DNA from: a virus
Lineage: Duplodnaviria; Heunggongvirae; Uroviricota; Caudoviricetes
IMG/VR virus record: IMGVR_UViG_2850761752_000005
Reading direction: 5' to 3' (one strand)
Length of the DNA: 33,816 nucleotides
A program made the position numbers and the translations under genes. A model generated the notes under the pieces. That model was given only the letters and a program-made list of their open reading frames with translations. It did no database searches and was not told the origin of the DNA. Positions 18,376 to 33,816 of this stretch are shown here, piece by piece. Numbering within the stretch: position 1 is the stretch's first letter; each line of letters begins with the position of its first letter.

Positions 18376-20142
18376 ATGAACACCACACTGACACCCGCAG
18401 ATCTCGATCCCCGTCGGCAGGCCATGCTGCTGTACTTTCAGGGATACCGCGTAGCCCGCATTGCTGAAATGCTGGGCGAGAAAGTTGCAACCGTTCACAG
18501 CTGGAAAAAACGCGACAAGTGGGGTGACTATGGGCCTCTGGATCAGATGCAGCTCACCACCGCCGCACGCTACTGCCAGCTCATCATGAAGGAGCACAAA
18601 GAAGGGAAAGATTTCAAAGAGATTGACCTGCTGGCGCGCCAGTCTGAGCGCCACGCGCGGATCGGCAAGTTTAACAATGGCGGCAACGAAGCCGACTTAA
18701 ACCCTAACGTCGCCAACCGCAACAAAGGCCCACGCCGTCAGCCTGAAAAGAATGTTTTCACCGATGACCAGATTGAGAAGCTGGAAAAAATTTTCCATTC
18801 CTCCATGTTCAACTACCAGCGCCACTGGTGGGAAGCCGGAAAAACCAACCGCATCCGCAACCTGCTGAAGTCACGCCAGATCGGCGCGACCTTCTATTTT
18901 GCCCGTGAAGCCCTGATTGACGCCCTGCTTACCGGACGTAACCAGATTTTCCTTTCTGCCAGTAAGGCACAGGCCCACGTCTTCAAACAGTACATCATCG
19001 ACTTTGCCAAAGAAGTGGAGGTGGAGCTGAAAGGCGATCCGATGGTGCTTCCCAACGGGGCCACACTGTATTTCCTCGGCACCAATGCCCGCACTGCCCA
19101 GAGTTATCACGGTAACCTGTATCTGGATGAATATTTCTGGATACCGAAATTTCAGGAGCTACGCAAAGTGGCTTCCGGTATGGCTATTCACAAGAAATGG
19201 CGGCAGACCTATTTTTCCACACCATCCAGTCTGACCCACAGTGCTTATCCGTTCTGGTCCGGTGCGCTGTTCAACCGTGGGCGCAACAAAGCTGACAAGG
19301 TGGACATCGACCTGTCCCACAGCAATCTGGCCCCCGGCCGGCTGTGCGCAGACGGGCAATACCGCCAGATAGTCACCGTGGAAGATGCGGTGCGCGGCGC
19401 CTGTAACCTGTTCGACCTTGACCAGTTGCGCATGGAGTACAGCCCTGACGAATACCAGAACCTGCTGATGTGCGAGTTCGTGGACGATCTCGCGTCCGTG
19501 TTCCCGCTCAGCGAATTGCAGGCGTGCATGGTGGACAGCTGGGAAGTCTGGACCGACTTTCATGCACTGGCCCTGCGCCCGTTTGGCTGGCGCGAAGTGT
19601 GGATCGGTTATGACCCGGCAAAAGGTACGCAGAACGGCGACAGCGCCGGATGCGTGGTGGTGGCACCGCCAGCCGTGCCAGGCGGTAAGTTCCGCATTCT
19701 TGAGCGTCACCAGTGGCGCGGAATGGACTTTCGCGCCCAGGCTGACGCCATCAAAAAACTGACTGAACAGTACAACGTGACCTATATCGGCATCGACTCA
19801 ACCGGCGTTGGTCACGGGGTTTACGAGAACGTGAAAGCGTTTTTTCCTGCCGTCCGGGAGTTTGTCTACAACCCCAACGTTAAAAACGCCCTGGTACTCA
19901 AGGCCTACGACATTATCAGCCACCGCCGTCTTGAGTTTGACGCCGGGCACACCGACATTGCGCAGTCATTCATGGCAATCCGTCGCGCCACCACCGCCAG
20001 CGGCAACCGCCCGACCTATGAAGCCAGCCGCAGCGAAGAAGCCAGCCATGCCGATCTGGCCTGGGCAACAATGCACGCACTGTTTAACGAACCGCTGCAG
20101 GGCGAGTCCGCCAATACCAGCAATATTGTGGAGATTTTTTGA
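18376..20142 (+). CDS. P: terminase large (ATPase) subunit gpP-like
   Basis: 588-aa ORF (P2 P is 590 aa); stop overlaps the Q start (ATGA). Confidence 0.9.
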   Translation: MNTTLTPADLDPRRQAMLLYFQGYRVARIAEMLGEKVATVHSWKKRDKWGDYGPLDQMQLTTAARYCQLIMKEHKEGKDFKEIDLLARQSERHARIGKFNNGGNEADLNPNVANRNKGPRRQPEKNVFTDDQIEKLEKIFHSSMFNYQRHWWEAGKTNRIRNLLKSRQIGATFYFAREALIDALLTGRNQIFLSASKAQAHVFKQYIIDFAKEVEVELKGDPMVLPNGATLYFLGTNARTAQSYHGNLYLDEYFWIPKFQELRKVASGMAIHKKWRQTYFSTPSSLTHSAYPFWSGALFNRGRNKADKVDIDLSHSNLAPGRLCADGQYRQIVTVEDAVRGACNLFDLDQLRMEYSPDEYQNLLMCEFVDDLASVFPLSELQACMVDSWEVWTDFHALALRPFGWREVWIGYDPAKGTQNGDSAGCVVVAPPAVPGGKFRILERHQWRGMDFRAQADAIKKLTEQYNVTYIGIDSTGVGHGVYENVKAFFPAVREFVYNPNVKNALVLKAYDIISHRRLEFDAGHTDIAQSFMAIRRATTASGNRPTYEASRSEEASHADLAWATMHALFNEPLQGESANTSNIVEIF

Positions 20143-21171
20143 TGGGAAAGAGTAAGAAGAACCGCGCTGCGGCGACGAAACAGACCCAGCATAAAAACCA
20201 GACTTCAGCCGAAGCATTCAGCTTCGGCGATCCCGTTCCGGTTCTGGACCGCCGTGAACTACTGGACTATGTGGAATGCGTACAGACAGATCGCTGGTAT
20301 GAGCCGCCAGTGAGTTTTGACGGACTGGCGCGCACCTTCCGCGCCGCCGTGCATCACAGTTCACCAATTGCGGTGAAATGCAACATTCTGATCAGTACCT
20401 ACATCCCTCACCCGCTGCTCAGCCAGCAGGCTTTTTCACGTTTTGTGCAGGATTATCTGGTATTTGGTAACGCTTACCTGGAGAAACGCACAAACCGGTT
20501 CGGAGAGGTCATCGCTCTTGAGCCTGCTCTGGCAAAATACACCCGACGCGGATTAGACCTGGATACCTACTGGTTTGTGCAATACGGCATGACCACGCAG
20601 CCGTATCAGTTCACGAAAGGAAGCATCTTTCATCTGATGGAACCGGACATCAACCAAGAGATCTACGGCCTGCCAGGTTACCTTTCTGCCATTCCGTCAG
20701 CCCTGCTCAACGAGTCCGCCACGCTGTTCCGCCGATAGTATTACATTAACGGCAGTCATGCAGGCTTCATCATGTACATGACCGATGCCGCGCAAAACCA
20801 GGAGGATGTGAACAACCTCCGCAATGCGATGAAAAGCGCCAAAGGACCAGGTAACTTCCGCAATCTGTTTATGTACTCGCCTAACGGCAAAAAGGACGGG
20901 CTTCAGATCATCCCGTTGTCAGAAGTCGCGGCGAAGGATGAGTTTCTGAACATCAAGAACGTGAGCCGGGATGACATGATGGCGGCGCATCGTGTGCCAC
21001 CGCAAATGATGGGGATTATGCCTAATAATGTCGGGGGTTTGGGGATGTGGAGAAGGCGAGCCTGGAGTTTGTACGTAACGAGTTAATACCGTTACAAAAA
21101 AGAATGATGGAAATAAATAAATTGGTAAGTGAGAACATTGTTAAATTTGATAGTTATAAACTAGCTACTTA
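20139..21171 (+). pseudogene. Q: portal protein gpQ-like, disrupted by an in-frame amber codon and a frameshift
   Basis: In-frame TAG at 20736..20738 with the same frame continuing to 21086; the final 40 or so codons (...DVEKASLEFVRNELIPLQ...) are in another frame, rejoined by adding one G to the G5 run at 21033..21037. Total span is about 344 codons, as in P2 Q. Confidence 0.75.
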
Positions 21172-21277: not shown

Positions 21278-22159
21278 TCATATGAGACGACCGTCTGGAC
21301 TTCTGTTACCTAAATGTAATTCACAGAGTATCCACCTAATCACATCAGGTCGAATTAACCCAGCTACAAAAACCGAATTCCAATTATTTTTACCTTTATG
21401 TTTTTCATCCAACAGCAACAACTCGCGAGTCAACAACTCATATACATCGCTATAAGTAGAAAGACTCTTATTCAGTCCTCTAATAACAAGCTCAGGATAT
21501 AAGTAAAACGACTCCCATTGTTCAGACAAATACCCCTTAATATTATTCTTGATAACAACATTATCAAGATGATACTTAACATTGTTATATTCTGGTGACA
21601 TTGGGTCAATTATGATTTTTACATCAATTGTAGGTGTTCGCCCTAATTTAGAAAAATTAGCACATATTAATCTTTGTTTTAATATATTATCAAAATATGG
21701 ATGCAGCATCCGATGGCCTGCAGAATTAGCTATAGTAGTACTTTTGAAAGTATTACATTTGCAAGCAGGAACCAAATTCTTAGTGAATAAAGAAAATTCT
21801 GGATAGTTTTCCTTGGGTAAAACATGATCCAAAGTCCCGCTATGCATTGAACCACACATTGGACATAGAGAGTTAGAATTAGCTGCTCTTATATCATCAA
21901 TTATAGATAAACACTTTGCGGGATTGTTATAATAATATCTCAAAGCTTCAGCAATATTGTTACTCAATACGCCACAAGAATTGACATTAAGATACCCTTT
22001 ATTCTTTATGTACGATCTATATGCATTAAGTATAAATGTATCCTGTCCATTCAGAACAGAATGATGTTTTAATCTCTTATTTGCAGATAGTTTTTTAAAT
22101 GCAGAATAATCTTTAAAAACAGGTCTTTTTAATTTATTCATTTCAATTGCCCATTTCAT
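21278..22159 (-). CDS. HNH endonuclease-domain protein (cargo gene 2)
   Basis: 293-aa ORF in an AT-rich region; motif CPMCG...GTLDHVLP...NLVPACKCN (CxxC, DH, N, CxC); ATG overlaps the ATPase stop by 17 nt. Confidence 0.7.
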   Translation of the reverse strand: MKWAIEMNKLKRPVFKDYSAFKKLSANKRLKHHSVLNGQDTFILNAYRSYIKNKGYLNVNSCGVLSNNIAEALRYYYNNPAKCLSIIDDIRAANSNSLCPMCGSMHSGTLDHVLPKENYPEFSLFTKNLVPACKCNTFKSTTIANSAGHRMLHPYFDNILKQRLICANFSKLGRTPTIDVKIIIDPMSPEYNNVKYHLDNVVIKNNIKGYLSEQWESFYLYPELVIRGLNKSLSTYSDVYELLTRELLLLDEKHKGKNNWNSVFVAGLIRPDVIRWILCELHLGNRSPDGRLI

Positions 22160-23791
22160 TTCTCAACGCAGTTAATACATTAAGTGATAAGTCCTCGCTA
22201 TATTTAGATTCAACATCATCCCAAGACATATTCTTTGCAATTATATTGTTTTTTACTTTATTTAAAATTTGAGTTGGTTCACTCTCACCGAAAACAAAAT
22301 ATGAGATATTTCCTATATTCGCCCCAAAAGTACTCAATCTCGGTTTTTCGCTAACAATTACCCCATCATCTCGTCTTCTGAGTATTGTCACTTGCTCCTT
22401 AAAAACCTCCCGAACAAGATAAACCGAATGCGTTGCTATGATAGCTGAAGAGCCTGTCTTTCTAATAAATTATCAAGCAATGCCATAAATTTATTAATAA
22501 ATGAAGGATGGAGATGTGTTTCTGGCTCATCTATTAATAGAAGAGTCCCATTCTCAATATACAAACAGACTTGTACACAAAACTTAATAAACGATATTTC
22601 CCCACTACTCAAAGGGTAACATTTATTTTCAATAAGCCTCAAAGGCTCGCCAGAGAGAATAATTTCAGAATATAATGATAGTCTAGATTCTTCGCCTCGA
22701 GAATTAAGCTCATTTAATTTAACAAATGGTGAATTTTCACCGCCACATTTGATTACTAAATCGTTGTTACTATTTAGAACACTCAGTGCATCAACAAATA
22801 TATTCCACCTTTGATTATAGCCGATAGCGTCGTTACTCCTCGCTAGTTGCACTATTAAATCATTCAAGTTTAATTTGGATTTTGATTCACGATTTAAAGT
22901 CAATCTTTTGTACCATATCAATGATTTTATTCTTTTATCGGTTGGAAATGAACACTTACTTTCATTTGTTGGAGAAAAAGCAATGAGCCTACTAATTTGA
23001 ATTCGTTCTTCAATGCTCACACCGTTAGAATCAACTACAGCCACCAAATTATCCTTTCCTTTAATCGCAGCCAATGCGATTTCTCTAAGCGTTTGGCTTT
23101 TTCCTACACCATTCTCGCCTATAATTATGGAAATTCTTTTTGGTAAATCATGCTCGTGATCAAAATTAAAAACATAAGATACATCTTCTTCATTAACTTT
23201 ATTCGAATAGCTAATCTTGATGTGCTGTGATAAATTACCCAACTCCTCATATTGAATACCGGAAAGAACTGTTCCTGCATTTTTGAAAGTAAAATACGAC
23301 TCAGACTCTCTAATGAAAGATTTATTAAAGATATCAGAAGAGATTGCTTTTTTCCTCAAATTCTCTGCACTAGCGTCACTTTTCTTAGAAACAACATCAT
23401 TAATGAAATTTAATATATATTTGGATTCATTCACCCCAAAAAATCTTACTAGTCTTCGATAATTATTCATATCCTGAAGCATGACAAAATAATCATTAAA
23501 CCCCTCATCCTTTAAATTAGATTCTTCCTTTTTCTTCACTCGCCTTATCAGTTCTGCTTTTCCATTTCGTTCCTCCTCTGAATTCAAAAAACCAATATAA
23601 CCATTCAGTGAAATTATATCCTTACACTCTTTTTTATTAAAAATAGATATTTCGACTCTACTCAAATATCCAAAATCATTCCAATCGCTTCTTGATGGGA
23701 CTATTTTTATATAATTACCAGAATCAGATATCTGTTGATTATTTGTAATTAAAAAATATAAACTATAATTTTTATTTTTCTTGACTAACAT
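22143..23791 (-). CDS. OLD/ABC-type ATPase with an unrecognised N-terminal domain (cargo gene 1), apparent single-base frameshift
   Basis: Walker A GENGVGKS near residue 225, Walker B LLLIDEPETHLHP and H-loop IIATHS. Read as two ORFs (22436..23791 and 22143..22391); a 1-nt gain within about 22430..22470 gives one protein of about 549 aa. Sample block 22441..22500 has 16 G+C of 60. Confidence 0.7.
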
Positions 23792-23833: not shown

Positions 23834-23861
23834 ATTTTACACACTTATACCTAGCGCGCAA
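23834..23861 (-). promoter_or_regulatory. Candidate sigma70 promoter for the ATPase-HNH operon
   Basis: Minus strand TTGCGC, 16-bp spacer, TAAAAT, about 45 nt upstream of the ATPase ATG. Pattern match only. Confidence 0.25.
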
Positions 23862-23879
23862 TCGTATCCCCGCCACGCC
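23861..23879. other. Candidate cos site (cohesive-end region)
   Basis: Minus strand GGCGTGGCGGGGATACGAT; first 13 nt match the recalled P2/186 cohesive-end sequence GGCG(A/T)GGCGGGGA. Confidence 0.4.
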
Positions 23880-23927
23880 TGCCCGCTTTATGTAGAGGTT
23901 TTCATGCACCTGCATGATCTACGCAAA

Positions 23928-23948
23928 AGCCCGCCAGTTCTGGCGGGC
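23928..23948 (-). terminator. Putative terminator downstream of the tum/dinI-like cassette
   Basis: Inverted repeat GCCCGCCAG / CTGGCGGGC with a short loop, followed on the minus strand by TTTTG. Confidence 0.35.
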
Positions 23949-24083
23949 CTTAGCAAAAACGATCCTCAAACGATCATGCGATCTCATGCGGCATAGACAT
24001 GCACTACAGAGCTAACGCCTCGCAAGGGCTCGTTGTTCAACCTTGCTGACGCCAGAAGCTAGTTCAGACGCCAGCAACGTTTC

Positions 24084-24317
24084 TTAATGCAGCCAGCTGT
24101 CGTCTTCCCACACCTTCTGCATAATTTTCATCACTTGTTTTCTTTCTTCGTCCAGTTGCAATCCAGTAAGTTCCACACCGTTAGAGCTACCTTTGCGGAT
24201 ACGAATTACCGTTTTGGGATACAGAGGGCGCAGATTGCGGTAAAGCTCGGATTCAAGAGCGTCCAGGGTAGACTGGCTAATCTTCTGCTCTTTATCGATC
24301 ATTATTTCAATGCGCAT
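24084..24317 (-). CDS. DinI-family protein
   Basis: 77 aa from ATG at 24317, preceded by GAGGTGA; MRIEIMIDK...VMKIMQKVWEDDSWL resembles E. coli DinI. Confidence 0.75.
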   Translation of the reverse strand: MRIEIMIDKEQKISQSTLDALESELYRNLRPLYPKTVIRIRKGSSNGVELTGLQLDEERKQVMKIMQKVWEDDSWLH

Positions 24318-24327
24318 AAAAGTCACC

Positions 24328-24516
24328 TCAGCTGATGACATCCATTGAGCGGTTGTATTCGTGGGTTCTGATTTTTGCCATGAGTTCATCAGTCAATTCA
24401 GAAACCCACTGCAGAGCCAGCCCCTTCTCTTCATCACTACACTCACTAGCCGCTACAAGCTTAAGAAAAAAATCAATGCGCTGGAGCTTCAAAGACTCCA
24501 AAAAATAGTCCTGCAT
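24328..24516 (-). CDS. small SOS-regulated protein, candidate Tum-like antirepressor N-terminal module
   Basis: 62 aa from ATG at 24516, preceded by AGGAGG; LexA box 44 to 59 nt upstream; stop lies 10 nt before the DinI-like ATG. Confidence 0.55.
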   Translation of the reverse strand: MQDYFLESLKLQRIDFFLKLVAASECSDEEKGLALQWVSELTDELMAKIRTHEYNRSMDVIS

Positions 24517-24557
24517 CTTTCCTCCTATGACACCACACGCAATACTGTATGCATAAC

Positions 24558-24577
24558 CACTGTTTATATTTACAGTA
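24558..24577 (-). promoter_or_regulatory. LexA (SOS) box overlapping the cassette promoter
   Basis: Minus strand TACTGTAAATATAAACAGTG, a full CTGT-N8-ACAG match; TATACT -10-like hexamer overlaps its 5' edge. Confidence 0.7.
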
Positions 24578-24669
24578 TATAATAATCTTACTGATGTAAA
24601 ACGTTTTTTTACGTTCATCAGCCTGATATGCCTGGTATTATTAAGAGCACGAATTGTTAACCCGCGTAA

Positions 24670-27084
24670 TTAATACAGGTTCCGCCACTGATCATCTTCC
24701 TGCAAACGCTGGTTCCGATAGAAGATACGCAGGCCTGCTCCTGACGGAATACTGCCTCCGCGAAGGAGTAAATCGACCTCTTTCTCGCTGCCATCAAATC
24801 CTCTGGACTTCAGCTCATACACGAGCTGCAGTCGCTGATGGTCTGTAATTCGCTGTTTGTAGTCTTTACGCCGTTTCGGTTTCACCAGGCGTAACCTTGC
24901 TGCCAGTTCCCGGCGCTCTTTTTTGCTCATACTGTGCAGGTAATCGTGCAACTCCTTGTCATCCATGCTGGTAATGTCCGTTCTGGGGTTCCCATCAGCT
25001 GATTTATCTTTCTCCTGTTGGTTCAAATTTTCAGCAAGGAGACAGTTATTGCCACGAGTCCAAGGGGCGCAAGCGCCCTGGTCGGCTGCCGCCTCCTGAA
25101 CGTCAACGGCTTTACGAACCATTTTCCACTTCACTGCATGAGTGCAGATCTTGCCTTCTGCAATGGGTGACCAGATGCCATAAATACGAATACCGTGATC
25201 GCCATAGGCGGTCGGCTCTTCATTGATTTCATAAGCGGTTCTGATCAAGTGATATTTGCGAGGAACCAGCACGCCGCCCTGCCTCATAATGTAGGTGGCA
25301 AAACAGCCAGCATCAGCAGCAGCCAGGATGGCATCAAGGCGCGGGTTATCCAGTACCGGCGCACCTGCTTTTTTGTCACCCTGCTGCCTTGCCGCCTGAC
25401 CAGCCAACAACCGCAGTTCACGGTAAGCCTGACGCCCTGGAATACCAAAGAAGCGGAATTGCTGAACACGATGCAGAGACGCCCAGGGATTAACGTATTC
25501 AGCGTTATCACGCAGGGATTTACCCGTTTCCTTGCTGATCTCGCCAGCCAGACCACGCCCGTCAATGTTCTTACTGATGTATTTCGCGATGTAGCTTGTC
25601 GGCGTTCCTTTGCGCGGGTTTATCAGCTCAGATTTAAAGCGTGGACCAGTGTTATTACCCAGTTCCTCGCGGTCTTCACGGATGGCAAACTTACGCAACA
25701 ATGCAGTAATGGCGCGGCGGTCTTTTTTGCGCATAAAACACAACAGGTGCCAGTGAACTGTACCGTCATGATGCGGCTCAGCCACCCGCACGCCATACCA
25801 GCGCAACCCGGCTTTGTGCATCGCCTTACGAAATGCAGCAAACATGCCGACCAGATAATCGCTGCTTTGTCTTACCGTCGCATTTGTCCAGGTTGGGTTT
25901 GGTCTGCCGTTATTGAGCGTGGAATGGAAACGTGACGGACAGGTAATGGTGTAGAAAACGGCGCAGTCACCGCGCATTTCCGCGATAAGCTCCAGACCTT
26001 TAACACAGGCCATCATCTCATTGCGGCGGTGCGCCGGGTTGCTGCTGCTGGCGTTTACCACGTCTTCCATATCCAGCGTGTCGCCCTCTTCGTTCACCAG
26101 TTCATGAGAACGGAAAAACTCCAATGACTTGCGGCGCTGCTCACGTTTATGCATCACGGCTTCATAGCTGACATAGGGAGATGCTTTTTTGCTGACCAGG
26201 CAGACAGCACGCAACTGCTCTTCCCGCCATTCGCAACGCATTTTCCATAATTTCCGGTACCACCAGTCGGCGCACAACATACGCGCCAGCGAACCCGGAA
26301 TGAGTTCATAGGGCACGGGTTTACGGCGGTTTCTTTTCCGACGGAGTTGCTCAAACGCAGGCGGGATGACATCCAGACGCAGGGTTTCCGCTGCCACCTT
26401 TTCCCATGTCTTGCGGATTTCTTCTGGCTTAACGTCATCGGTGGCATACAAATCACCACAAGCTGCATCAAGGCACATGCTCATATGCGCAGCGACAAGG
26501 GTAGACAGGCGTTTCACCTGATCCTGACTCATTTCAGGCAGAATCAGCAGGCCGTCCAGCCCTACATGGCTTGCCATAAAACGAAAAGATGCAGATAGCT
26601 GGCTGTCGCGTACATGCTCCAGTCGTTCCAGACATGGCTTAATCGTCTCACGTAAATAGCGGGAATAAGCCTTTGGCCTGCCCAGGCTGCTGAAGTATTC
26701 AATACGTTGCATCAGCGGCTTGCTGATATGGGAAGGCTGGGCGTTGACGTCCGCCAGAATGACCATATCCGGATTAAAACGCTGCTGCTCATGCGCCAGC
26801 TTTGCCCGGCTAATGAGCTTATCCTGCTCCATTTCGTGCTGGACAGGATCACGTGATTCATAAAAAAAATAACGCTCCCAGACCTGATCACTCAGTGCCT
26901 CGCGGCGCAACTGTTCCTGCTCGTTATCGGCAGCGTACAGAGTGATCAGGTTTGAAAGCGCAGAAACCGGCGCAACTTCCGCCGGGTCCAGATAAGGGTT
27001 AATGGCCTTTTTCGGGCTGTTCCATGAGAACGCTGCGGCAGCCTCGTTAAAGCCGCAGCAGTTGTTCATATCGGCATGGCTCAT
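24670..27084 (-). CDS. A: replication initiation protein gpA-like (rolling-circle initiator)
   Basis: 804-aa ORF (P2 A is 761 aa); ATG overlaps the dam' stop. Confidence 0.85.
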
Positions 27085-27720
27085 GCACGTACTCCGTACA
27101 CGGCAGAACTATCCACGCCACGCGAATAATCAAATCCCACCCAGCAGCGCGGCCCGGAAACAGCAATGATTTCTGTTGCTGATTTACCCTCGCCAGCTGC
27201 CACACCGATGCTGCGTTTTACCTTGATATAGTGGTGAGTAAAATTGCGATACAGCGAACGGATCAGGGATGTGTCACTGTTAGAAACAATGACCGGATGT
27301 CCTTCTGATGACCGATGTTCAAGAACGGATGCTAGGTGATACTGGTCATCTTCAGTGAAACCATCAGTGTGATAGCCGGAAAACGTACCGTCATACGGTG
27401 GATCGCAATACACCACATCCCCCGCCTTCAACATCGCCAGCGTTTCATCAAAGCTGGCGCAGATAAACGTTGCTCGCTGGGCTTTTTCTGCAAATGCGCG
27501 AATTTCTTTTTCAGGGAAATACGGATTTTTATAATTGCCGTAGGGAATGTTGAAATGCCCGCTCTTGTTATAGCGACATAAACCACGGTAACCGTGACGA
27601 TTGAGATACAGGAAATATACCGCTTTCATGAAATCAGTAATTTCAGTTGAGTAATTAAACTCCTGCCTTATGTTGTAATAAGCCACCTCCCTGTTTGCGA
27701 TCTCAAATAAAACTCTGGCG
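27081..27720 (-). pseudogene. Dam-like N6-adenine DNA methyltransferase, 5'-truncated by IS911
   Basis: DPPY motif and a strong match to recalled E. coli Dam from about residue 75 onward; frame is open right up to the IS911 end at 27721; the N-terminal AdoMet-binding region is missing. Confidence 0.75.
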
Positions 27721-27728
27721 TGAAGTGG

Positions 27729-28897
<1,169 letters not shown>

Positions 28898-28969
28898 TGG
28901 AGCACCTGTGTTGTTCTGAGGTGAGCATATCACCTCTGTTCAGGTGGCCAAATTCAGTGTGCCACTTCA

Positions 28970-29146
28970 AAGCAGCCAGATTTCTGGTGCGGTTAATAAA
29001 TGAGGCTGAGCTGGGTTCAGCTTGTTCCGCAGAATCTGCACATTCATGCCTGCACGTTCTGCCAGTTGCACCAGATTGTGGCGCAGTGCAAATGCACGAC
29101 AGGCTTCATCAAAATGTGGATGTTTGGAAACTTGGTAATCAAACAT
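28970..29146 (-). pseudogene. cII: 186 CII-like protein, 3'-truncated by IS911
   Basis: [19 protein letters not shown]... resembles recalled 186 CII; the frame runs into the IS911 terminus and stops at the IS-encoded TGA. Confidence 0.6.
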
Positions 29147-29178
29147 GGTCAATGCCTCTGATGTATTTCAGAATCGAA

Positions 29179-29501: not shown

Positions 29502-29525
29502 GATAAAAGTTCACTTGGAGTGACC

Positions 29526-30095
29526 ATGAATTTGGAGAAAGGCGGACGAGGCGCCATAGAGCGCATGGTAGAAGCTTATGGATTCAAGACTCGACAGGCG
29601 TTGTGCGATCATTTAGGAATCTCTAAAAGTACACTCGCCACACGCTACATGCGTGACTCATTCCCAGCAGAATGGGTAATCCAGTGCGCCCTTGAAACGG
29701 GCACCTCGCTTAATTGGCTCACAACCGGACATGGTTCAAAGCAAACTTCAGGTAATACAAATACTATGGAAGTTGCTAAATATGTATTATCTGATGGTGC
29801 CTTGCGTGAAGACGGTTTTTATATTTTTGATAAGGGATTTCTACCCTCTACGTTTAAAAAACCTTTTGTCATCACAGATAACAATTCTGAATTTATTTGT
29901 GATAAAGAATTTGATGACATACGTGATGGTAAATGGGTAATAAGTATTGATGGCGAAGTAACGATCCGTGACATTACTCGTTTACCCGGTGGAAGAATCT
30001 TCGTCGAGGGTGGAAACAGAGCCTTCGAATGTAAGATAGAAGACATTGAAATAATTGGTAAAATTATAAGTTTAACAGTTAAATATGTTAGATAA
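29526..30095 (+). CDS. cI: 186 CI-like immunity repressor
   Basis: 190 aa from ATG at 29526 after GGAG (the ORF track starts at a GTG at 29520); N-terminal HTH. Confidence 0.7.
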   Translation: MNLEKGGRGAIERMVEAYGFKTRQALCDHLGISKSTLATRYMRDSFPAEWVIQCALETGTSLNWLTTGHGSKQTSGNTNTMEVAKYVLSDGALREDGFYIFDKGFLPSTFKKPFVITDNNSEFICDKEFDDIRDGKWVISIDGEVTIRDITRLPGGRIFVEGGNRAFECKIEDIEIIGKIISLTVKYVR

Positions 30096-30110: not shown

Positions 30111-30302
30111 ATGCTTGGTAAAGTATTTTTTGTGGTTTTATCATGCTCTTTGTTATTAAGCCCACTAACTACCTATGCTAAAAATTATCCTTGTTCTGGG
30201 AAAAAGGGAGGTGTCTCTCACTGTACCTCCGATGGAAAATTTGTTTGCAATGATGGAACTATTAGTAAATCCAAAAAAATCTGTACTAAAAACTCACGAT
30301 AA
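30111..30302 (+). CDS. small secreted Cys-rich protein of unknown function (candidate moron)
   Basis: 63-aa ORF with strong GGGAGG site; N-terminal signal peptide and four Cys in the mature part; 16 nt after the cI stop. Confidence 0.5.
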
Positions 30303-30366: not shown

Positions 30367-30642
30367 GTGGCTTCCATTTCCATCAGATGTCCTTCCTGCT
30401 CCGCTACTGAAGGCGTGGTGCGTAACGGCAAAAGCACTGCCGGACATCAGCGCTATCTCTGCTCTCATTGCCGTAAAACATGGCAACTACAGTTCACTTA
30501 CACCGCCTCTCAGCCCGGTACGCACCAGAAAATCATTGATATGGCCATGAATGGCGTCGGATGTCGCGCCAGTGCACGCATTATGGGCGTTGGCCTCAAC
30601 ACGGTTTTACGTCACTTAAAAAACTCAGGCCGCAGTCGGTAA
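30367..30642 (+). CDS. insA: IS1 InsA
   Basis: Identical 91-aa protein to copy 1. Confidence 0.95.
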
Positions 30643-31064
30643 CCTCGCGCATACAACCGGGCAGTGATGTGATTGTCTGCGCTGAAATGGACGAACAGTG
30701 GGGCTACGTCGGTGCTAAATCACGTCAGCGCTGGCTGTTTTACGCGTATGACAGGATACGGAGGACGGTTGTGGCGCACGTCTTCGGTGAACGCACTCTG
30801 GCCACACTGGAGCGTCTTCTGAGCCTGCTGTCGGCCTTTGAGGTCGTGGTATGGATGACGGATGGCTGGCCGCTGTATGAATCACGCCTGAAGGGAAAGC
30901 TGCACGTTATCAGCAAGCGTTACACTCAGCGCATTGAGCGACATAATCTGAATCTGAGACAACATCTGGCAAGGCTGGGACGGAAGTCACTGTCGTTCTC
31001 AAAATCGGTGGAGCTGCATGACAAGGTCATCGGGCATTATCTGAACATAAAACACTATCAGTAA
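30561..31064 (+). CDS. insB: IS1 InsB
   Basis: Identical 167-aa protein to copy 1. Confidence 0.95.
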
Positions 31065-31130: not shown

Positions 31131-31457
31131 ATGACTAAAAATACTCGTTTTTCCCCCGAAGTCCGTCAGAGGGCGATTCGTATGGTTCTGGAAAGTCAGG
31201 GCGAATATGACTCACAGTGGGCGGCAATTTGTTCCATTGCCCCAAAGATTGGCTGTACACCGGAGACTCTGCGTGTCTGGGTACGCCAGCATGAGCGGGA
31301 TACCGGAGGCGGTGATGGCGGGCTCACCACCGCTGAACGTCAGCGTCTGAAAGAGCTGGAACGTGAAAATCGTGAACTGCGCCGCAGTAACGATATCCTT
31401 CGCCAGGCTTCCGCTTATTTTGCGAAGGCGGAGTTCGACCGCCTCTGGAAAAAGTGA
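31131..31457 (+). CDS. IS629 OrfA
   Basis: 108-aa [18 protein letters not shown]..., matching recalled IS629/IS1203 OrfA. Confidence 0.9.
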
Positions 31458-32344
31458 TGCCACTGCTGGATAAGCTGCGTAAGCTGTACGGGGTCGGACC
31501 GGTATGCAGTGAACTACATATTGCCCCGTCAACGTATTACCACTGTCAGCAACAGCGACATCATCCTGATAAACGCAGTGCCCGTGCGCAGCGCGATGAC
31601 TGGCTGAAGAAAGAGATACTGCGCGTATACGATGGGAATCATCAGGTATACGGTGTGCGTAAAGTCTGGCGTCAGTTGTTACGGGAAGGTATCAGAGTGG
31701 CCAGATGCACTGTGGCACGTCTCATGGCGGTTATGGGACTTGCCGGTGTTCTCCGGGGTAAAAAGGTCCGTACGACCATCAGCCGGAAAGCCGTTGCCGC
31801 AGGCGACCGCGTAAACCGTCAGTTCGTGGCAGAACGACCTGACCAGCTGTGGGTGGCTGATTTTACTTACGTCAGCACATGGCAGGGCTTCGTCTATGTG
31901 GCGTTCATTATTGATGTGTTTGCCGGATACATCGTGGGGTGGCGGGTCTCATCGTCCATGGAAACGACATTCGTGCTGGATGCTCTGGAGCAGGCGTTAT
32001 GGGCCCGTCGACCGTCCGGCACGGTCCATCACAGTGATAAAGGTTCTCAGTATGTATCGCTGGCCTACACACAGCGGCTTAAGGAAGCCGGATTACTGGC
32101 ATCAACAGGAAGTACAGGCGACTCGTATGACAACGCGATGGCGGAGAGCATCAATGGTCTTTACAAAGCGGAGGTAATACACCGTAAGAGCTGGAAAAAC
32201 CGTGCAGAAGTGGAACTGGCCACACTCACGTGGGTGGACTGGTATAATAATCGACGATTGCTGGAAAGGCTGGGCCACATCCCTCCGGCAGAAGCAGAAA
32301 AAGCTTATTATGCTTCCATCGGAAACGATGATCTGGCAGCCTGA
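31454..32344 (+). CDS. IS629 OrfB transposase
   Basis: 296-aa ORF with IS3-family DDE region. Confidence 0.9.
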
Positions 32345-32401: not shown

Positions 32402-32580
32402 TTATATCTGCGTCTAAAATAAAAATGAGCCGCAGGTTAACCGCAAAAGTTACATGCTCACATAGCAAAAAGAATAGCCAACTTCATTATGGCTTCAGTG
32501 AGATGTATGGTCGTAGGATTTCATACATTGACACTGGTTATACATACAGTAAAAATACTCTCTACTGGAGGGCATTTTTT

Positions 32581-33441
32581 ATGGCAGTACGAAAACTCAC
32601 CACTGGGAAATGGCTTTGCGAATGTTACCCCGCCGGACGAAGTGGGCGTCGTGTGCGTAAACAATTCGCCACCAAAGGCGAAGCACTGGCTTTTGAGCGC
32701 CACACGATGGAAGAAACCGAAGCAAAGCCCTGGCTGGGTGAATCAGTGGATCGTCGAACACTGAAAGACGTGGTTGAGCTATGGTTCAAACTACATGGTA
32801 AATCTCTGACAGCTGGGCAGCATGTCTATGACAAATTGCTGTTGATGGTTGACGCTCTGGGCAATCCTCTTGCAACCGATCTCACCTCTAAAATGTTTGC
32901 CCACTATCGAGATAAACGCCTGACAGGCGGGATCTACTTCAGCGAGAAATGGAAGAAAGGAGCAAGCCCGGTCACCATTAACCTGGAGCAAAGCTATCTA
33001 AGTAGTGTTTTTAGCGAACTATCCCGTCTGGGCGAATGGTCGTATCCGAACCCACTGGAGAACATGCGAAAATTCACCATCGCAGAAAAAGAGATGGCAT
33101 GGCTTACCCATGAGCAGATTGTTGAATTGCTGGCTGATTGCAAACGTCAGGACCCAATTCTGGCACTGGTAGTTAAGATATGCTTAAGCACAGGCGCACG
33201 CTAGCGTGAAGCCGTAAATCTTACCCGCTCACAGGTGACCAAATACCGAATTACCTTTGTCAGAACGAAGGGAAGAAAAACAGAAGCATCCCTATCAGTA
33301 AAGAGCTTTACGAAGAGATCATGGCGCTTGATGGGTTCAATTTCTTCACAGACTGCTATTTTCAATTTTTATCCGTGATGGAAAAAACGTCTATCGTGCT
33401 CCCTCGCGGTCAACTCACACACGTTCTGCGCCATACGTTTG
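32581..33441 (+). pseudogene. int: P2/186-type tyrosine integrase with amber codon, frameshift and 3' truncation by IS911
   Basis: MAVRKLTTGKW... resembles recalled P2 Int; TAG at 33202..33204 where ...STGARW... is expected; frame change near the A-run at 33271..33280; the HVLRHTF region runs straight into the IS911 end at 33442, so the catalytic Tyr region is lost. Confidence 0.7.

Positions 33442-33816
<375 letters not shown>

What the first reader, a model, noticed from the sequence alone, without database searches (positions are those of the whole stretch)
24084..24600. LexA-box-controlled Tum-like / DinI-like cassette next to cos
Seen in sequence: a full-consensus LexA box (CTGT-N8-ACAG, 24560..24575) overlaps a -10-like hexamer upstream of a 62-aa ORF, followed 10 nt later by a DinI-family ORF. 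Established knowledge: phage 186 is SOS-inducible through LexA-repressed tum, whose product is an antirepressor with a DinI-like C-terminal half. Here the two halves are separate ORFs. The DinI frame is open 24 codons upstream of its ATG, so a 1-nt indel splitting an ancestral single gene is possible, but the GAGGTGA site before the ATG fits two cistrons equally well.
Basis: partly seen in the sequence, partly recalled or inferred. Interest (0 to 1): 0.55.

Follow-up and report, generated by a model that had tools for sequence, protein, structure and literature searches.

The report
SOS-inducible split tum operon of prophage
This is the well-known DNA-damage switch of a Fels-2/186-type prophage: a LexA-repressed promoter drives a 62-residue antirepressor (TumA) and a separate DinI-like protein (TumB). 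It is correctly read but ordinary, occurring in about one in five complete E. coli genomes and already tested genetically in E. coli HS.

Summary
A CTGT-N8-ACAG LexA box (24575..24560) overlaps the -10 hexamer. A 62-aa ORF follows (24516..24328). Ten nt later comes a 77-aa DinI-family ORF (24317..24084), then a terminator and cos (23879..23861).

The 62-aa ORF is homologous to the N-terminal half of phage 186 Tum, but only at profile level (HMM E 5e-9; hhalign 95%). The DinI ORF is 41% identical to the Tum C-terminal half.

The split is not an indel artefact. In 18 loci, including the window, an intact DinI ORF follows tumA after 9-13 nt, in all three frame offsets. Another 19 loci have tumA with no DinI gene.

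The arrangement is already annotated as tumA/tumB in phage PSP3 and described in the literature for Fels-2. In E. coli HS prophage DuoHS, the same gene (61/62 residues identical, same promoter) was deleted and mitomycin-C-induced lysis was lost.

My additions are modest:
- The promoter carries a colicin-type double overlapping LexA operator.
- A 186-type CI repressor, the likely target, is present.
- The prophage is dead: IS insertions and a broken portal gene.

Verdict: already known, low interest.

The parts
24595..24600 (-). -35-like hexamer TTTACA of the tum promoter (equivalent of 186 p95)
   Evidence: Read from the sequence. An A-run followed by TTTACA/TTCACA is conserved about 17 nt upstream of TACTGT in most of the related loci. 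Same layout as the annotated p95 of phage 186. The generic promoter scan missed it because the -10 has only 3/6 matches.
24558..24577 (-). LexA box 1, TACTGTAAATATAAACAGTG (core CTGT-N8-ACAG 24575..24560). Its left half TACTGT is the -10 hexamer.
   Evidence: A box with at least 7/8 core matches is present at this position in every related locus with enough upstream sequence. Identical in Fels-2 and E. coli HS DuoHS.
24543..24562 (-). LexA box 2, CAGTGGTTATGCATACAGTA (core GTGG-N8-ACAG 24560..24545). It shares one base with the core of box 1, giving a colicin-type double SOS operator.
   Evidence: Conserved with at least 6/8 core matches at +15 nt in 21 of 39 loci scored, the window among them. 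The 35-nt operator aligns without gaps to the colicin N and pesticin promoters. [quoted passage not shown] LexA binding was not tested here.
24328..24516 (-). tumA: 62-aa antirepressor, homologue of the N-terminal half of 186 Tum. SD AGGAGG at 24526..24521.
   Evidence: Profile HMM against 186 Tum: 33 bits, E 5e-9, best shuffle 8.5 bits. hhalign 95%, E 3e-8, residues 3-46 to 3-46. PHROG cross-hits. 61/62 identical to ECHS_RS04495, the tum gene deleted in E. coli HS DuoHS. AF2 model: helical hairpin, pLDDT 89.
24084..24317 (-). tumB: 77-aa DinI-like protein. SD GAGGTGA (24329..24323) overlaps the tumA stop codon.
   Evidence: Pfam DinI 81 bits against a cut-off of 24.2. 41% identity to 186 Tum residues 71-145. 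Matches E. coli DinI structure 1GHH over its full length, E 2.7e-6. 77/77 identical to DuoHS ECHS_RS04500. PSP3 TumB is the annotated equivalent.
23922..23951 (-). Intrinsic terminator of the SOS operon (GGCCCGCCAG-AACT-CTGGCGGGCC, then TTTTG)
   Evidence: RNAfold gives -23.4 kcal/mol for the 43-nt stretch. The region is conserved with DuoHS and aligns to the right end of 186.
23861..23879 (-). cos cohesive-end 19-mer GGCGTGGCGGGGATACGAT
   Evidence: 16/19 identical to the annotated 186 cos, and both flanks align. The same motif follows tumA in Pantoea and Erwinia loci.
29520..30095 (+). 186-type CI immunity repressor, the inferred target of TumA
   Evidence: Pfam Phage_CI_repr 2.8e-33 and Phage_CI_C 5.4e-29. 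32% identity to 186 CI over 175 residues, E 7e-38.

Best explanation
This is the SOS operon of a Fels-2-like (Peduoviridae) prophage. It is the split-gene version of the phage 186 p95-tum module, and it lies between replication gene A and cos.

Proposed mechanism:
1. In undamaged cells, LexA occupies a double operator that overlaps the -10 hexamer and keeps the promoter off.
2. DNA damage activates RecA and LexA cleaves itself. The promoter then fires and makes one bicistronic mRNA.
3. TumA is a 62-residue helical hairpin homologous to the N-terminal half of 186 Tum. It binds the 186-type CI repressor and stops it from holding the lytic promoter, so the prophage switches to lytic growth without repressor cleavage.
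4. TumB is a free-standing DinI-like protein. Its translation is probably coupled to that of TumA, because its Shine-Dalgarno sequence overlaps the tumA stop codon. It binds RecA filaments and tunes the SOS signal.

Basis of each step:
- Shown here: the anatomy, the homologies and the conservation.
- Shown by others on a near-identical copy (DuoHS): the requirement for tum and for cleavable LexA.
- Inferred from 186 Tum and E. coli DinI: TumA binding CI, and TumB binding RecA.

In this window the switch can no longer yield phage, because the prophage is broken by IS elements and a portal pseudogene.
For: Anatomy.

Homology:
- DinI: Pfam 6.6e-23; 41% identity to the Tum C-terminal half; matches the DinI structure 1GHH.
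- TumA to the Tum N-terminal half: HMM E 5e-9 against a 2429-sequence decoy set; hhalign 95%.
- The 186 Tum N-terminal half hits phrog_698, which is the TumA family, at 5.9e-6.

Public annotation:
- The 186 record annotates p95, the LexA site, and nested tum starts. One is a GTG start that gives a DinI-only product.
- PSP3 annotates tumA ('similar to 5' end 186 tum; UV induction of prophage') and tumB.
- The Fels-2 record has the same pair of genes.

Literature:
- Fels-2 and PSP3 have tum split in two. In PSP3 the upstream gene is the antirepressor and the downstream gene is the DinI homologue (PMC3121763).
- lexA-null survivors of Salmonella LT2 had all lost Fels-2 (PMC12626290).
- Deleting tum (ECHS_RS04495), or making lexA non-cleavable, abolishes mitomycin-C-induced lysis of E. 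coli HS DuoHS (PMC12055606).
- That gene is 61/62 identical to the window ORF and has the same promoter.

Conservation:
- A LexA-like box is present in all 39 related loci with enough upstream sequence.
- Eighteen loci, the window included, keep an intact tumA-tumB bicistron in every frame offset.
- The cassette is in 1125 of 5426 complete E. coli genomes.

Target: a 186-type CI is present.
Against: - No experiment was done on this copy.
- The single LexA-motif match is not significant by itself.
- BLASTP sees no similarity between the 62-aa ORF and 186 Tum.
- PSP3 TumA does not score against the TumA profile (3.8 bits). The named PSP3 protein is therefore linked here only through synteny, a shared C-x6-[LI]AL motif seen by eye, and 186 Tum.
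- TumA binding to CI is inferred from 186, not shown for the split form.
- The role of TumB is unclear even in the literature. Non-polar dinI deletions in Gifsy prophages had no effect on induction.
- The prophage here is defective, so prophage induction cannot be the current selective function of this copy.
Confidence: 0.9

Rival explanations
1. The two ORFs are the remains of a single fused tum gene. It was split in this genome by a recent 1-nt indel or a sequencing error, so the locus is a pseudogene or an artefact.
For: The DinI frame is open 24-25 codons upstream of its ATG and overlaps the end of the 62-aa ORF. Phage 186 has the fused form.
Against: - The same 62-aa plus 77-aa arrangement, with a 10-nt gap, is found in Fels-2, DuoHS and more than a thousand E. 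coli genomes.
- In more distant loci the gap is 9-13 nt, with frame offsets 0, 1 and 2, and each has its own Shine-Dalgarno sequence and ATG.
- The upstream open stretch ranges from 1 to 25 codons.
- tumA occurs without any DinI gene in 19 loci.
- The split gene is functional in DuoHS.
Confidence: 0.02
2. In this decayed prophage the cassette is no longer an induction switch. It is kept because it serves the host or other mobile elements. TumB would act as an extra DinI-like SOS modulator. TumA would act in trans as an inducer of co-resident prophages or satellites that share the same CI specificity.
For: - The operon, promoter and CI are intact and nearly identical to functional DuoHS.
- Around them the portal gene carries a stop and a frameshift, and three IS elements disrupt the early operon and int.
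- Trans-acting antirepressors that cross-induce other prophages are documented in Salmonella (PMC3121763).
Against: - Intactness may only reflect recent decay, since the IS copies look young.
- No second Fels-2-like element is visible in the window.
- No test of selection was made.
- dinI-homologue deletions had no detectable effect in Gifsy prophages.
Confidence: 0.12
3. The 62-aa protein is not an antirepressor but a small transcription factor of another kind. Database names on relatives ('Levan regulatory protein') would suggest this, with the resemblance to Tum being superficial.
For: Several relatives carry the UniRef or NCBI name 'Levan regulatory protein'. Erwinia amylovora rlsB and rlsC bear that name and activate levansucrase expression (PMC3445560).
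Against: - The names are uncurated, and I could not obtain RlsB or RlsC sequences to test them.
- Homology to the Tum N-terminal half is statistically supported.
- Synteny with 186 and PSP3 tum is exact.
- Deleting the near-identical gene blocks SOS induction of DuoHS.
Confidence: 0.04

Closest known systems
E. coli HS prophage DuoHS tum (ECHS_RS04495) and its DinI-like neighbour ECHS_RS04500
   Same: TumA is 61/62 identical and TumB 77/77. The promoter and both LexA boxes are identical, and so are the 10-nt gap and the position after gene A. Deleting tum, or making lexA non-cleavable, abolishes mitomycin-C induction (PMC12055606).
   Different: DuoHS is an intact, inducible phage and carries an orf97-like gene after tumB. 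The window copy lacks that gene (24003..24085 is unrelated) and sits in a defective prophage.
Salmonella phage Fels-2 STM2728 / STM2726.1, and PSP3 tumA / tumB
   Same: Both have a split tum, with a small upstream ORF followed by a DinI homologue, behind a LexA box and between gene A and cos. Fels-2 DNA is about 96% identical to the window here. The literature states that the split is real and that the PSP3 upstream gene is the antirepressor (PMC3121763).
   Different: In PSP3 the two genes are in the same frame, separated by TAG plus one codon, and the LexA box is single, about 40 nt before the start. PSP3 TumA is too diverged to score against the TumA profile.
Coliphage 186 p95-tum SOS operon
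   Same: - A LexA box overlaps a TACTGT -10 hexamer.
[quoted passage not shown]
- N-terminal antirepressor region: profile homology over residues 3-46.
- DinI-like C-terminal region: 41% identity.
- A CI repressor of the same family is present.
- 186 also makes a DinI-only product, from an internal GTG start behind its own Shine-Dalgarno sequence.
   Different: In 186 the two parts are fused in one 146-aa protein, the LexA box is single, and orf97 follows in the operon.
Double overlapping SOS boxes of colicin and pesticin promoters
   Same: The 35-nt operator TACTGTAAATATAAACAGTGGTTATGCATACAGTA aligns without gaps to the cna and pst promoters. The two 16-bp cores share one base in the same way. 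Such operators bind two LexA dimers and give very tight repression (PMC2994835).
   Different: Here it drives a prophage antirepressor rather than a bacteriocin. Binding of two dimers was not tested. I found no description of this feature for Fels-2-type phages in the papers I could read, but Bunny et al. 2002 was not available.
Gifsy prophage dinI-gfoA/gftA LexA-controlled operons
   Same: A LexA-repressed promoter drives a DinI homologue and a small antirepressor that inactivates a non-cleavable repressor (PMC3121763).
   Different: The gene order is reversed (dinI first). The antirepressor and repressor families are unrelated to TumA and 186 CI, and the phage is lambdoid.

Membership tests
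Tum-type LexA-controlled antirepressor (186 Tum N-terminal half; PSP3 TumA; DuoHS Tum) | Sequence homology to the N-terminal, non-DinI part of 186 Tum | tested here: met
   - A profile of 47 TumA-family sequences (the window's ORF plus 46 relatives) hits Tum residues 5-43 at 33 bits, E 5e-9. The best of 2000 shuffles scores 8.5 bits.
- hhalign gives probability 95%, E 3e-8.
- The 186 Tum N-terminal half hits phrog_698 at 5.9e-6.
- Pairwise BLASTP is negative.
Tum-type LexA-controlled antirepressor (186 Tum N-terminal half; PSP3 TumA; DuoHS Tum) | Promoter repressed by LexA (SOS box overlapping the promoter) | tested here: inconclusive
   At sequence level it is met. The box is 17/20 to consensus, overlaps the -10, and is conserved in all 39 related loci with enough upstream sequence. 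A second overlapping box is also present. LexA binding cannot be tested with these tools. A lexA(Ind-) mutation blocks induction of DuoHS, which has an identical promoter.
Tum-type LexA-controlled antirepressor (186 Tum N-terminal half; PSP3 TumA; DuoHS Tum) | Position at the right end of a P2/186-like genome, between replication gene A and cos | tested here: met
   gpA lies at 27084..24670, tumA at 24516..24328 and cos at 23879..23861. The order is the same in 186, PSP3, Fels-2 and DuoHS.
Tum-type LexA-controlled antirepressor (186 Tum N-terminal half; PSP3 TumA; DuoHS Tum) | A cognate 186-type CI repressor in the same element | tested here: met
   ORF 29520..30095 has Pfam Phage_CI_repr and Phage_CI_C, and is 32% identical to 186 CI.
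Tum-type LexA-controlled antirepressor (186 Tum N-terminal half; PSP3 TumA; DuoHS Tum) | Binds CI and prevents operator binding; required for SOS induction | not testable with these tools
   The biochemistry is known only for fused 186 Tum (Shearwin et al. 1998, as cited). The genetic requirement is shown for the 61/62-identical DuoHS gene.
DinI family (Pfam PF06183) | Scores above the Pfam gathering threshold over the whole domain | tested here: met
   81.3 bits against a cut-off of 24.2; residues 14-76 cover profile positions 1-63 of 63.
DinI family (Pfam PF06183) | Equivalog of chromosomal E. coli DinI (NCBIfam PRK10597) | tested here: not met
   42.7 bits against a cut-off of 111. It is a phage DinI-like paralogue, not the host dinI. 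It still aligns end to end with the DinI structure 1GHH, E 2.7e-6, including the C-terminal W-E-x-D-x-W helix.
DinI family (Pfam PF06183) | Binds RecA filaments and modulates SOS | not testable with these tools
   Inferred from E. coli DinI and from the notes in the 186 record ('modulates SOS induction').
Colicin-type double SOS operator | Two LexA boxes whose 16-bp cores overlap by one base | tested here: met
   The cores are 24575..24560 and 24560..24545. They align without gaps to the cna and pst promoters. The second box is conserved in 21 of 39 loci scored, the window among them.
Colicin-type double SOS operator | Cooperative binding of two LexA dimers, giving tight and late induction | not testable with these tools
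   Known for colicin operators (PMC2994835). Not examined for this promoter.
P2/186-type cos site | 19-nt cohesive-end sequence with conserved flanks | tested here: met
   16/19 identical to the 186 cos, and about 95 nt across the joined 186 ends align. It is the only match to GGCGWGGCGGGG in the window.

The most novel reading that the evidence does not exclude
The Fels-2-type tum promoter is a colicin-type double LexA operator, whereas 186, PSP3 and the Pantoea-type relatives have a single box. Prophage induction would then be a high-threshold, late SOS event. Splitting tum would let the antirepressor and the DinI-like RecA modulator be dosed independently. In this IS-riddled dead prophage, the intact cassette would survive as a host-level SOS module or as a trans-inducer of other elements. 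A further untested lead: the 'levan regulatory protein' RlsB and RlsC of Erwinia may be domesticated TumA-family proteins.
Probability: 0.15. Interest if true: 0.35.

Novelty: already known. Interest (0 to 1): 0.15.

Why it matters
As a discovery it matters little. The module is described in the literature and annotated in PSP3. It has been validated genetically in a near-identical E. coli prophage, and it is present in about 21% of complete E. coli genomes.

The practical value is in annotation. TumA is still called 'hypothetical protein' by PGAP. It is 'unknown function' in PHROGs (phrog_698) and has no Pfam or NCBIfam model. SOS-inducible P2-like prophages are therefore easy to misread as non-inducible.

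The double LexA operator shared with colicin promoters is a small and cheaply testable point about how tightly these prophages are held.

Tried and rejected
- BLASTP of the 62-aa ORF against 186 Tum found no alignment. Profile methods were needed.
- Pfam, NCBIfam and PDB sequence searches found nothing for TumA.
- The HMMER scan of 1.84 billion representatives found 88 family members. All credible ones are short and stand-alone, none is fused to DinI, and 186 Tum itself fell below the library-wide threshold.
- A search with the 186 Tum N-terminal half returned many truncated fragments and some genuine 63-67-aa 'Tum protein' entries. I could not use it to say which of the fused and split states is ancestral.
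- The generic promoter scan found no sigma-70 site, because the -10 TACTGT has only 3/6 matches.
- The hairpin at the tumA/tumB junction (24339..24322) could sequester the tumB Shine-Dalgarno sequence. The sequence is not conserved in relatives, so I do not claim it.
- A programmed frameshift making a fused product is rejected, because frame offsets and upstream open lengths vary freely.
- The diverse alignment A2 was too variable for the search for related loci, so A1 was used instead.
- Bunny et al. 2002, the primary source for the Fels-2 split, is not in the library. I rely on how two later papers cite it.
- The RlsB/RlsC 'levan regulatory protein' lead could not be resolved for lack of those sequences.
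- No fold search was run on the TumA model. A 62-residue helical hairpin would match indiscriminately.

Full report
**What is there.** The coding strand is the minus strand. Downstream of the 804-aa replication gene A (27084..24670) the order is as follows:
- an A-run and TTTACA (24600..24595);
- 17 nt of spacer;
- TACTGTAAATATAAACAGTG (24577..24558);
- AGGAGG and an ATG that opens a 62-codon ORF (24516..24328);
- the stop codon TGA, overlapped by GAGGTGA;
- 10 nt after the stop, an ATG that opens a 77-codon ORF (24317..24084);
- a strong hairpin with a T-run (23951..23922; -23.4 kcal/mol);
- GGCGTGGCGGGGATACGAT (23879..23861).

This last 19-mer is 16/19 identical to the annotated cos of phage 186, and both flanks align.

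The one statistical caveat concerns the LexA motif. A single CTGT-N8-ACAG in 33.8 kb is not improbable: 0.41 are expected, and 36 of 100 shuffles have at least one. The case for the box rests on position and conservation, not on the match alone.

**Identity of the two ORFs.** The 77-aa ORF belongs to the DinI family.
- Pfam gives 81 bits against a cut-off of 24.
- It is 41% identical to residues 71-145 of 186 Tum.
- It aligns end to end with the solved E. coli DinI structure 1GHH.
- It falls below the NCBIfam equivalog cut-off for host DinI (42.7 against 111 bits), so it is a phage paralogue.

The 62-aa ORF has no Pfam, NCBIfam or PDB match, and BLASTP against 186 Tum is empty. Profile methods do link it to Tum.
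- A scan of 1.84 billion representative proteins gave 88 relatives. The credible ones are 55-75 aa and stand alone.
- An HMM built from the window's ORF plus 46 relatives hits 186 Tum residues 5-43 at 33 bits, E 5e-9. The test set held 2429 sequences, 2000 of them shuffles, and the best shuffle scored 8.5 bits.
- hhalign gives 95% probability, aligning residues 3-46 of both proteins.
- In the other direction, the 186 Tum N-terminal half hits phrog_698, the family of the window ORF, at 5.9e-6.
- AlphaFold predicts a confident helical hairpin (helix 2-23, a turn holding the conserved Cys26, helix 28-61; pLDDT 89).

**It is already known.**
- The phage 186 record annotates p95 (-35 TTCACA, -10 TACTGT), a LexA site over the -10, and tum with nested starts. 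One is a GTG start that gives a DinI-only product.
- The PSP3 record annotates tumA ('similar to 5' end 186 tum; UV induction of prophage') and tumB ('similar to dinI and 3' end of 186 tum').
- The Fels-2 record has the same 62-aa ORF and a DinI gene described as similar to PSP3 TumB. Its DNA is about 96% identical to the window here.
- Lemire et al. [quoted passage not shown] They add that in PSP3 the upstream gene is the antirepressor and the downstream gene is the DinI homologue (PMC3121763).
- lexA-null survivors of Salmonella LT2 had all lost Fels-2 (PMC12626290, citing Bunny et al. 2002).
- The strongest evidence is genetic. Ortiz de Ora et al. 2025 deleted 'tum (locus tag ECHS_RS04495)' in E. 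coli HS prophage DuoHS. Both that deletion and lexA(Ind-) abolished mitomycin-C-induced lysis (PMC12055606).
- ECHS_RS04495 is a 62-aa ORF that is 61/62 identical to the window's. It has an identical promoter, the same 10-nt gap, and a DinI-like neighbour that is 77/77 identical.
- The cassette is found in 1125 of 5426 complete E. coli genomes, where PGAP calls it 'hypothetical protein | DinI-like family protein'.

**Indel or two cistrons?** I fetched 40 related loci from different Enterobacterales species (65-100% TumA identity) and analysed them together with the window, 41 loci in all.
- tumA is about 62 codons in nearly all of them.
- Eighteen loci, including the window, have an intact DinI ORF 9-13 nt after the tumA stop. 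The frame offsets are 0, 1 and 2 in 5, 6 and 7 loci, and each DinI ORF has its own G-rich Shine-Dalgarno sequence and ATG.
- The open stretch upstream of the DinI ATG varies from 1 to 25 codons, so the 24 open codons in the window are chance.
- Four loci have a damaged DinI gene.
- Nineteen loci, mainly Pantoea and Erwinia, have tumA with no DinI gene at all. In several of these tumA is followed directly by the terminator and cos.

This rules out a sequencing artefact, a recent pseudogenising indel and a conserved programmed frameshift. It also shows that TumA is the constant part of the module and DinI an optional one. In PSP3 the two genes are in the same frame, separated by TAG and one codon, so the junction has been remodelled repeatedly. 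I could not decide whether fusion or fission came first.

**The operator is double.** In the Fels-2-type loci a second box follows 15 nt after the first (window: CAGTGGTTATGCATACAGTA, 24562..24543). Its 16-bp core shares one base with the core of box 1.
- It keeps at least 6/8 core positions in 21 of 39 loci scored, the window among them.
- It is absent from 186, PSP3 and the Pantoea-type promoters. There a single box lies about 40 nt before the start codon.
- A search of plasmids with this 67-nt stretch hit small colicin plasmids and Yersinia pestis pPCP1.
- The 35-nt operator aligns without gaps to the colicin N (cna) and pesticin (pst) promoters.

By analogy, the Fels-2-type tum promoter should be held more tightly, and fire later, than a single-box promoter. 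This is inference.

**Mechanism.**
- Shown by sequence: a LexA operator lies over the -10; the two cistrons have a coupled layout, with the tumB Shine-Dalgarno sequence overlapping the tumA stop; a terminator and cos follow; a 186-type CI repressor lies at 29520..30095. The CI has Pfam Phage_CI_repr and Phage_CI_C and is 32% identical to 186 CI.
- Shown by others on a near-identical copy: tum and cleavable LexA are required for SOS induction.
- Inferred from 186: TumA binds CI and blocks operator binding.
- Inferred from DinI and the 186 record notes: TumB acts on RecA filaments.

A hairpin that could mask the tumB Shine-Dalgarno sequence is not conserved, and I do not claim it.

**State of this copy.** The prophage is dead.
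- Compared with DuoHS, an IS3-family element (27729..28933) replaces about 1.6 kb of the early operon and truncates dam and cII.
- IS1 (30367..31064) and a second IS3-family element (31131..32344) lie between cI and int.
- int is truncated, and a further IS3-family copy begins at 33478.
- The portal gene has an in-frame TAG and a frameshift.
- The orf97 homologue that follows tumB in 186, Fels-2 and DuoHS is absent.

The SOS operon and cI are nevertheless intact. This is compatible either with recent decay or with retention for another use. I give the second reading low probability.

**Verdict.** The finding is an already known, experimentally validated and very common module. Its residual interest lies in the colicin-type double operator and in the annotation gap for TumA.

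Noticed in passing
window 21278..23791 (minus strand): Two low-GC cargo genes sit between cos and the portal gene: a 451-aa AAA_21 ATPase and a 293-aa partner. They match the PADLOC candidate defence pair PDC-M01A (5e-33) and PDC-M01B (1e-33). Homology to related phages stops 7 nt past the cos 19-mer, and other phages carry different cargo at this spot.
   Followed up: partly
window 20142..21163 (+): The portal gene (P2 Q homologue) is a pseudogene. It has an in-frame TAG where DuoHS has Lys (about 20736) and a frameshift near 21040, after which the C-terminus diverges.
   Followed up: partly
window 27729..28933, 30367..31064, 31131..32344, 33478..33816: Four insertion sequences lie in or next to the prophage regulatory region: three IS3-family copies, two of them near-identical, and one IS1. 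The first replaces about 1.6 kb of the early operon and truncates dam (27081..27686) and cII (28967..29152). int (32425..33204) is truncated.
   Followed up: partly
window 24003..24085: The orf97-like gene that follows tumB in 186, Fels-2 and DuoHS is missing. Eighty-three nt of unrelated sequence with an imperfect hairpin join tumB to the conserved terminator-cos segment.
   Followed up: no
TumA-family proteins P0018, P0325, P0340, P0372 (relatives of window 24328..24516): Several relatives are named 'Levan regulatory protein' in UniRef or NCBI. Erwinia amylovora rlsB and rlsC carry that name and activate levansucrase expression (PMC3445560). If they are true homologues, the antirepressor family has been recruited to host regulation. 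I could not get those sequences to test this.
   Followed up: partly
distant TumA relatives (e.g. P0146, P0157, P0161, P0173, P0178, P0188): A subgroup of diverged TumA homologues ends in a conserved glycine-rich tail...K-N-P-Q-x-G-G-x-x-S-G-x-x-L-Q. The window's protein lacks it, and its meaning is unknown.
   Followed up: no
window 30111..30302 (+): A 63-aa ORF with a signal-peptide-like N-terminus and several cysteines lies just downstream of cI. The same position in DuoHS holds a 63-aa hypothetical gene.
   Followed up: no
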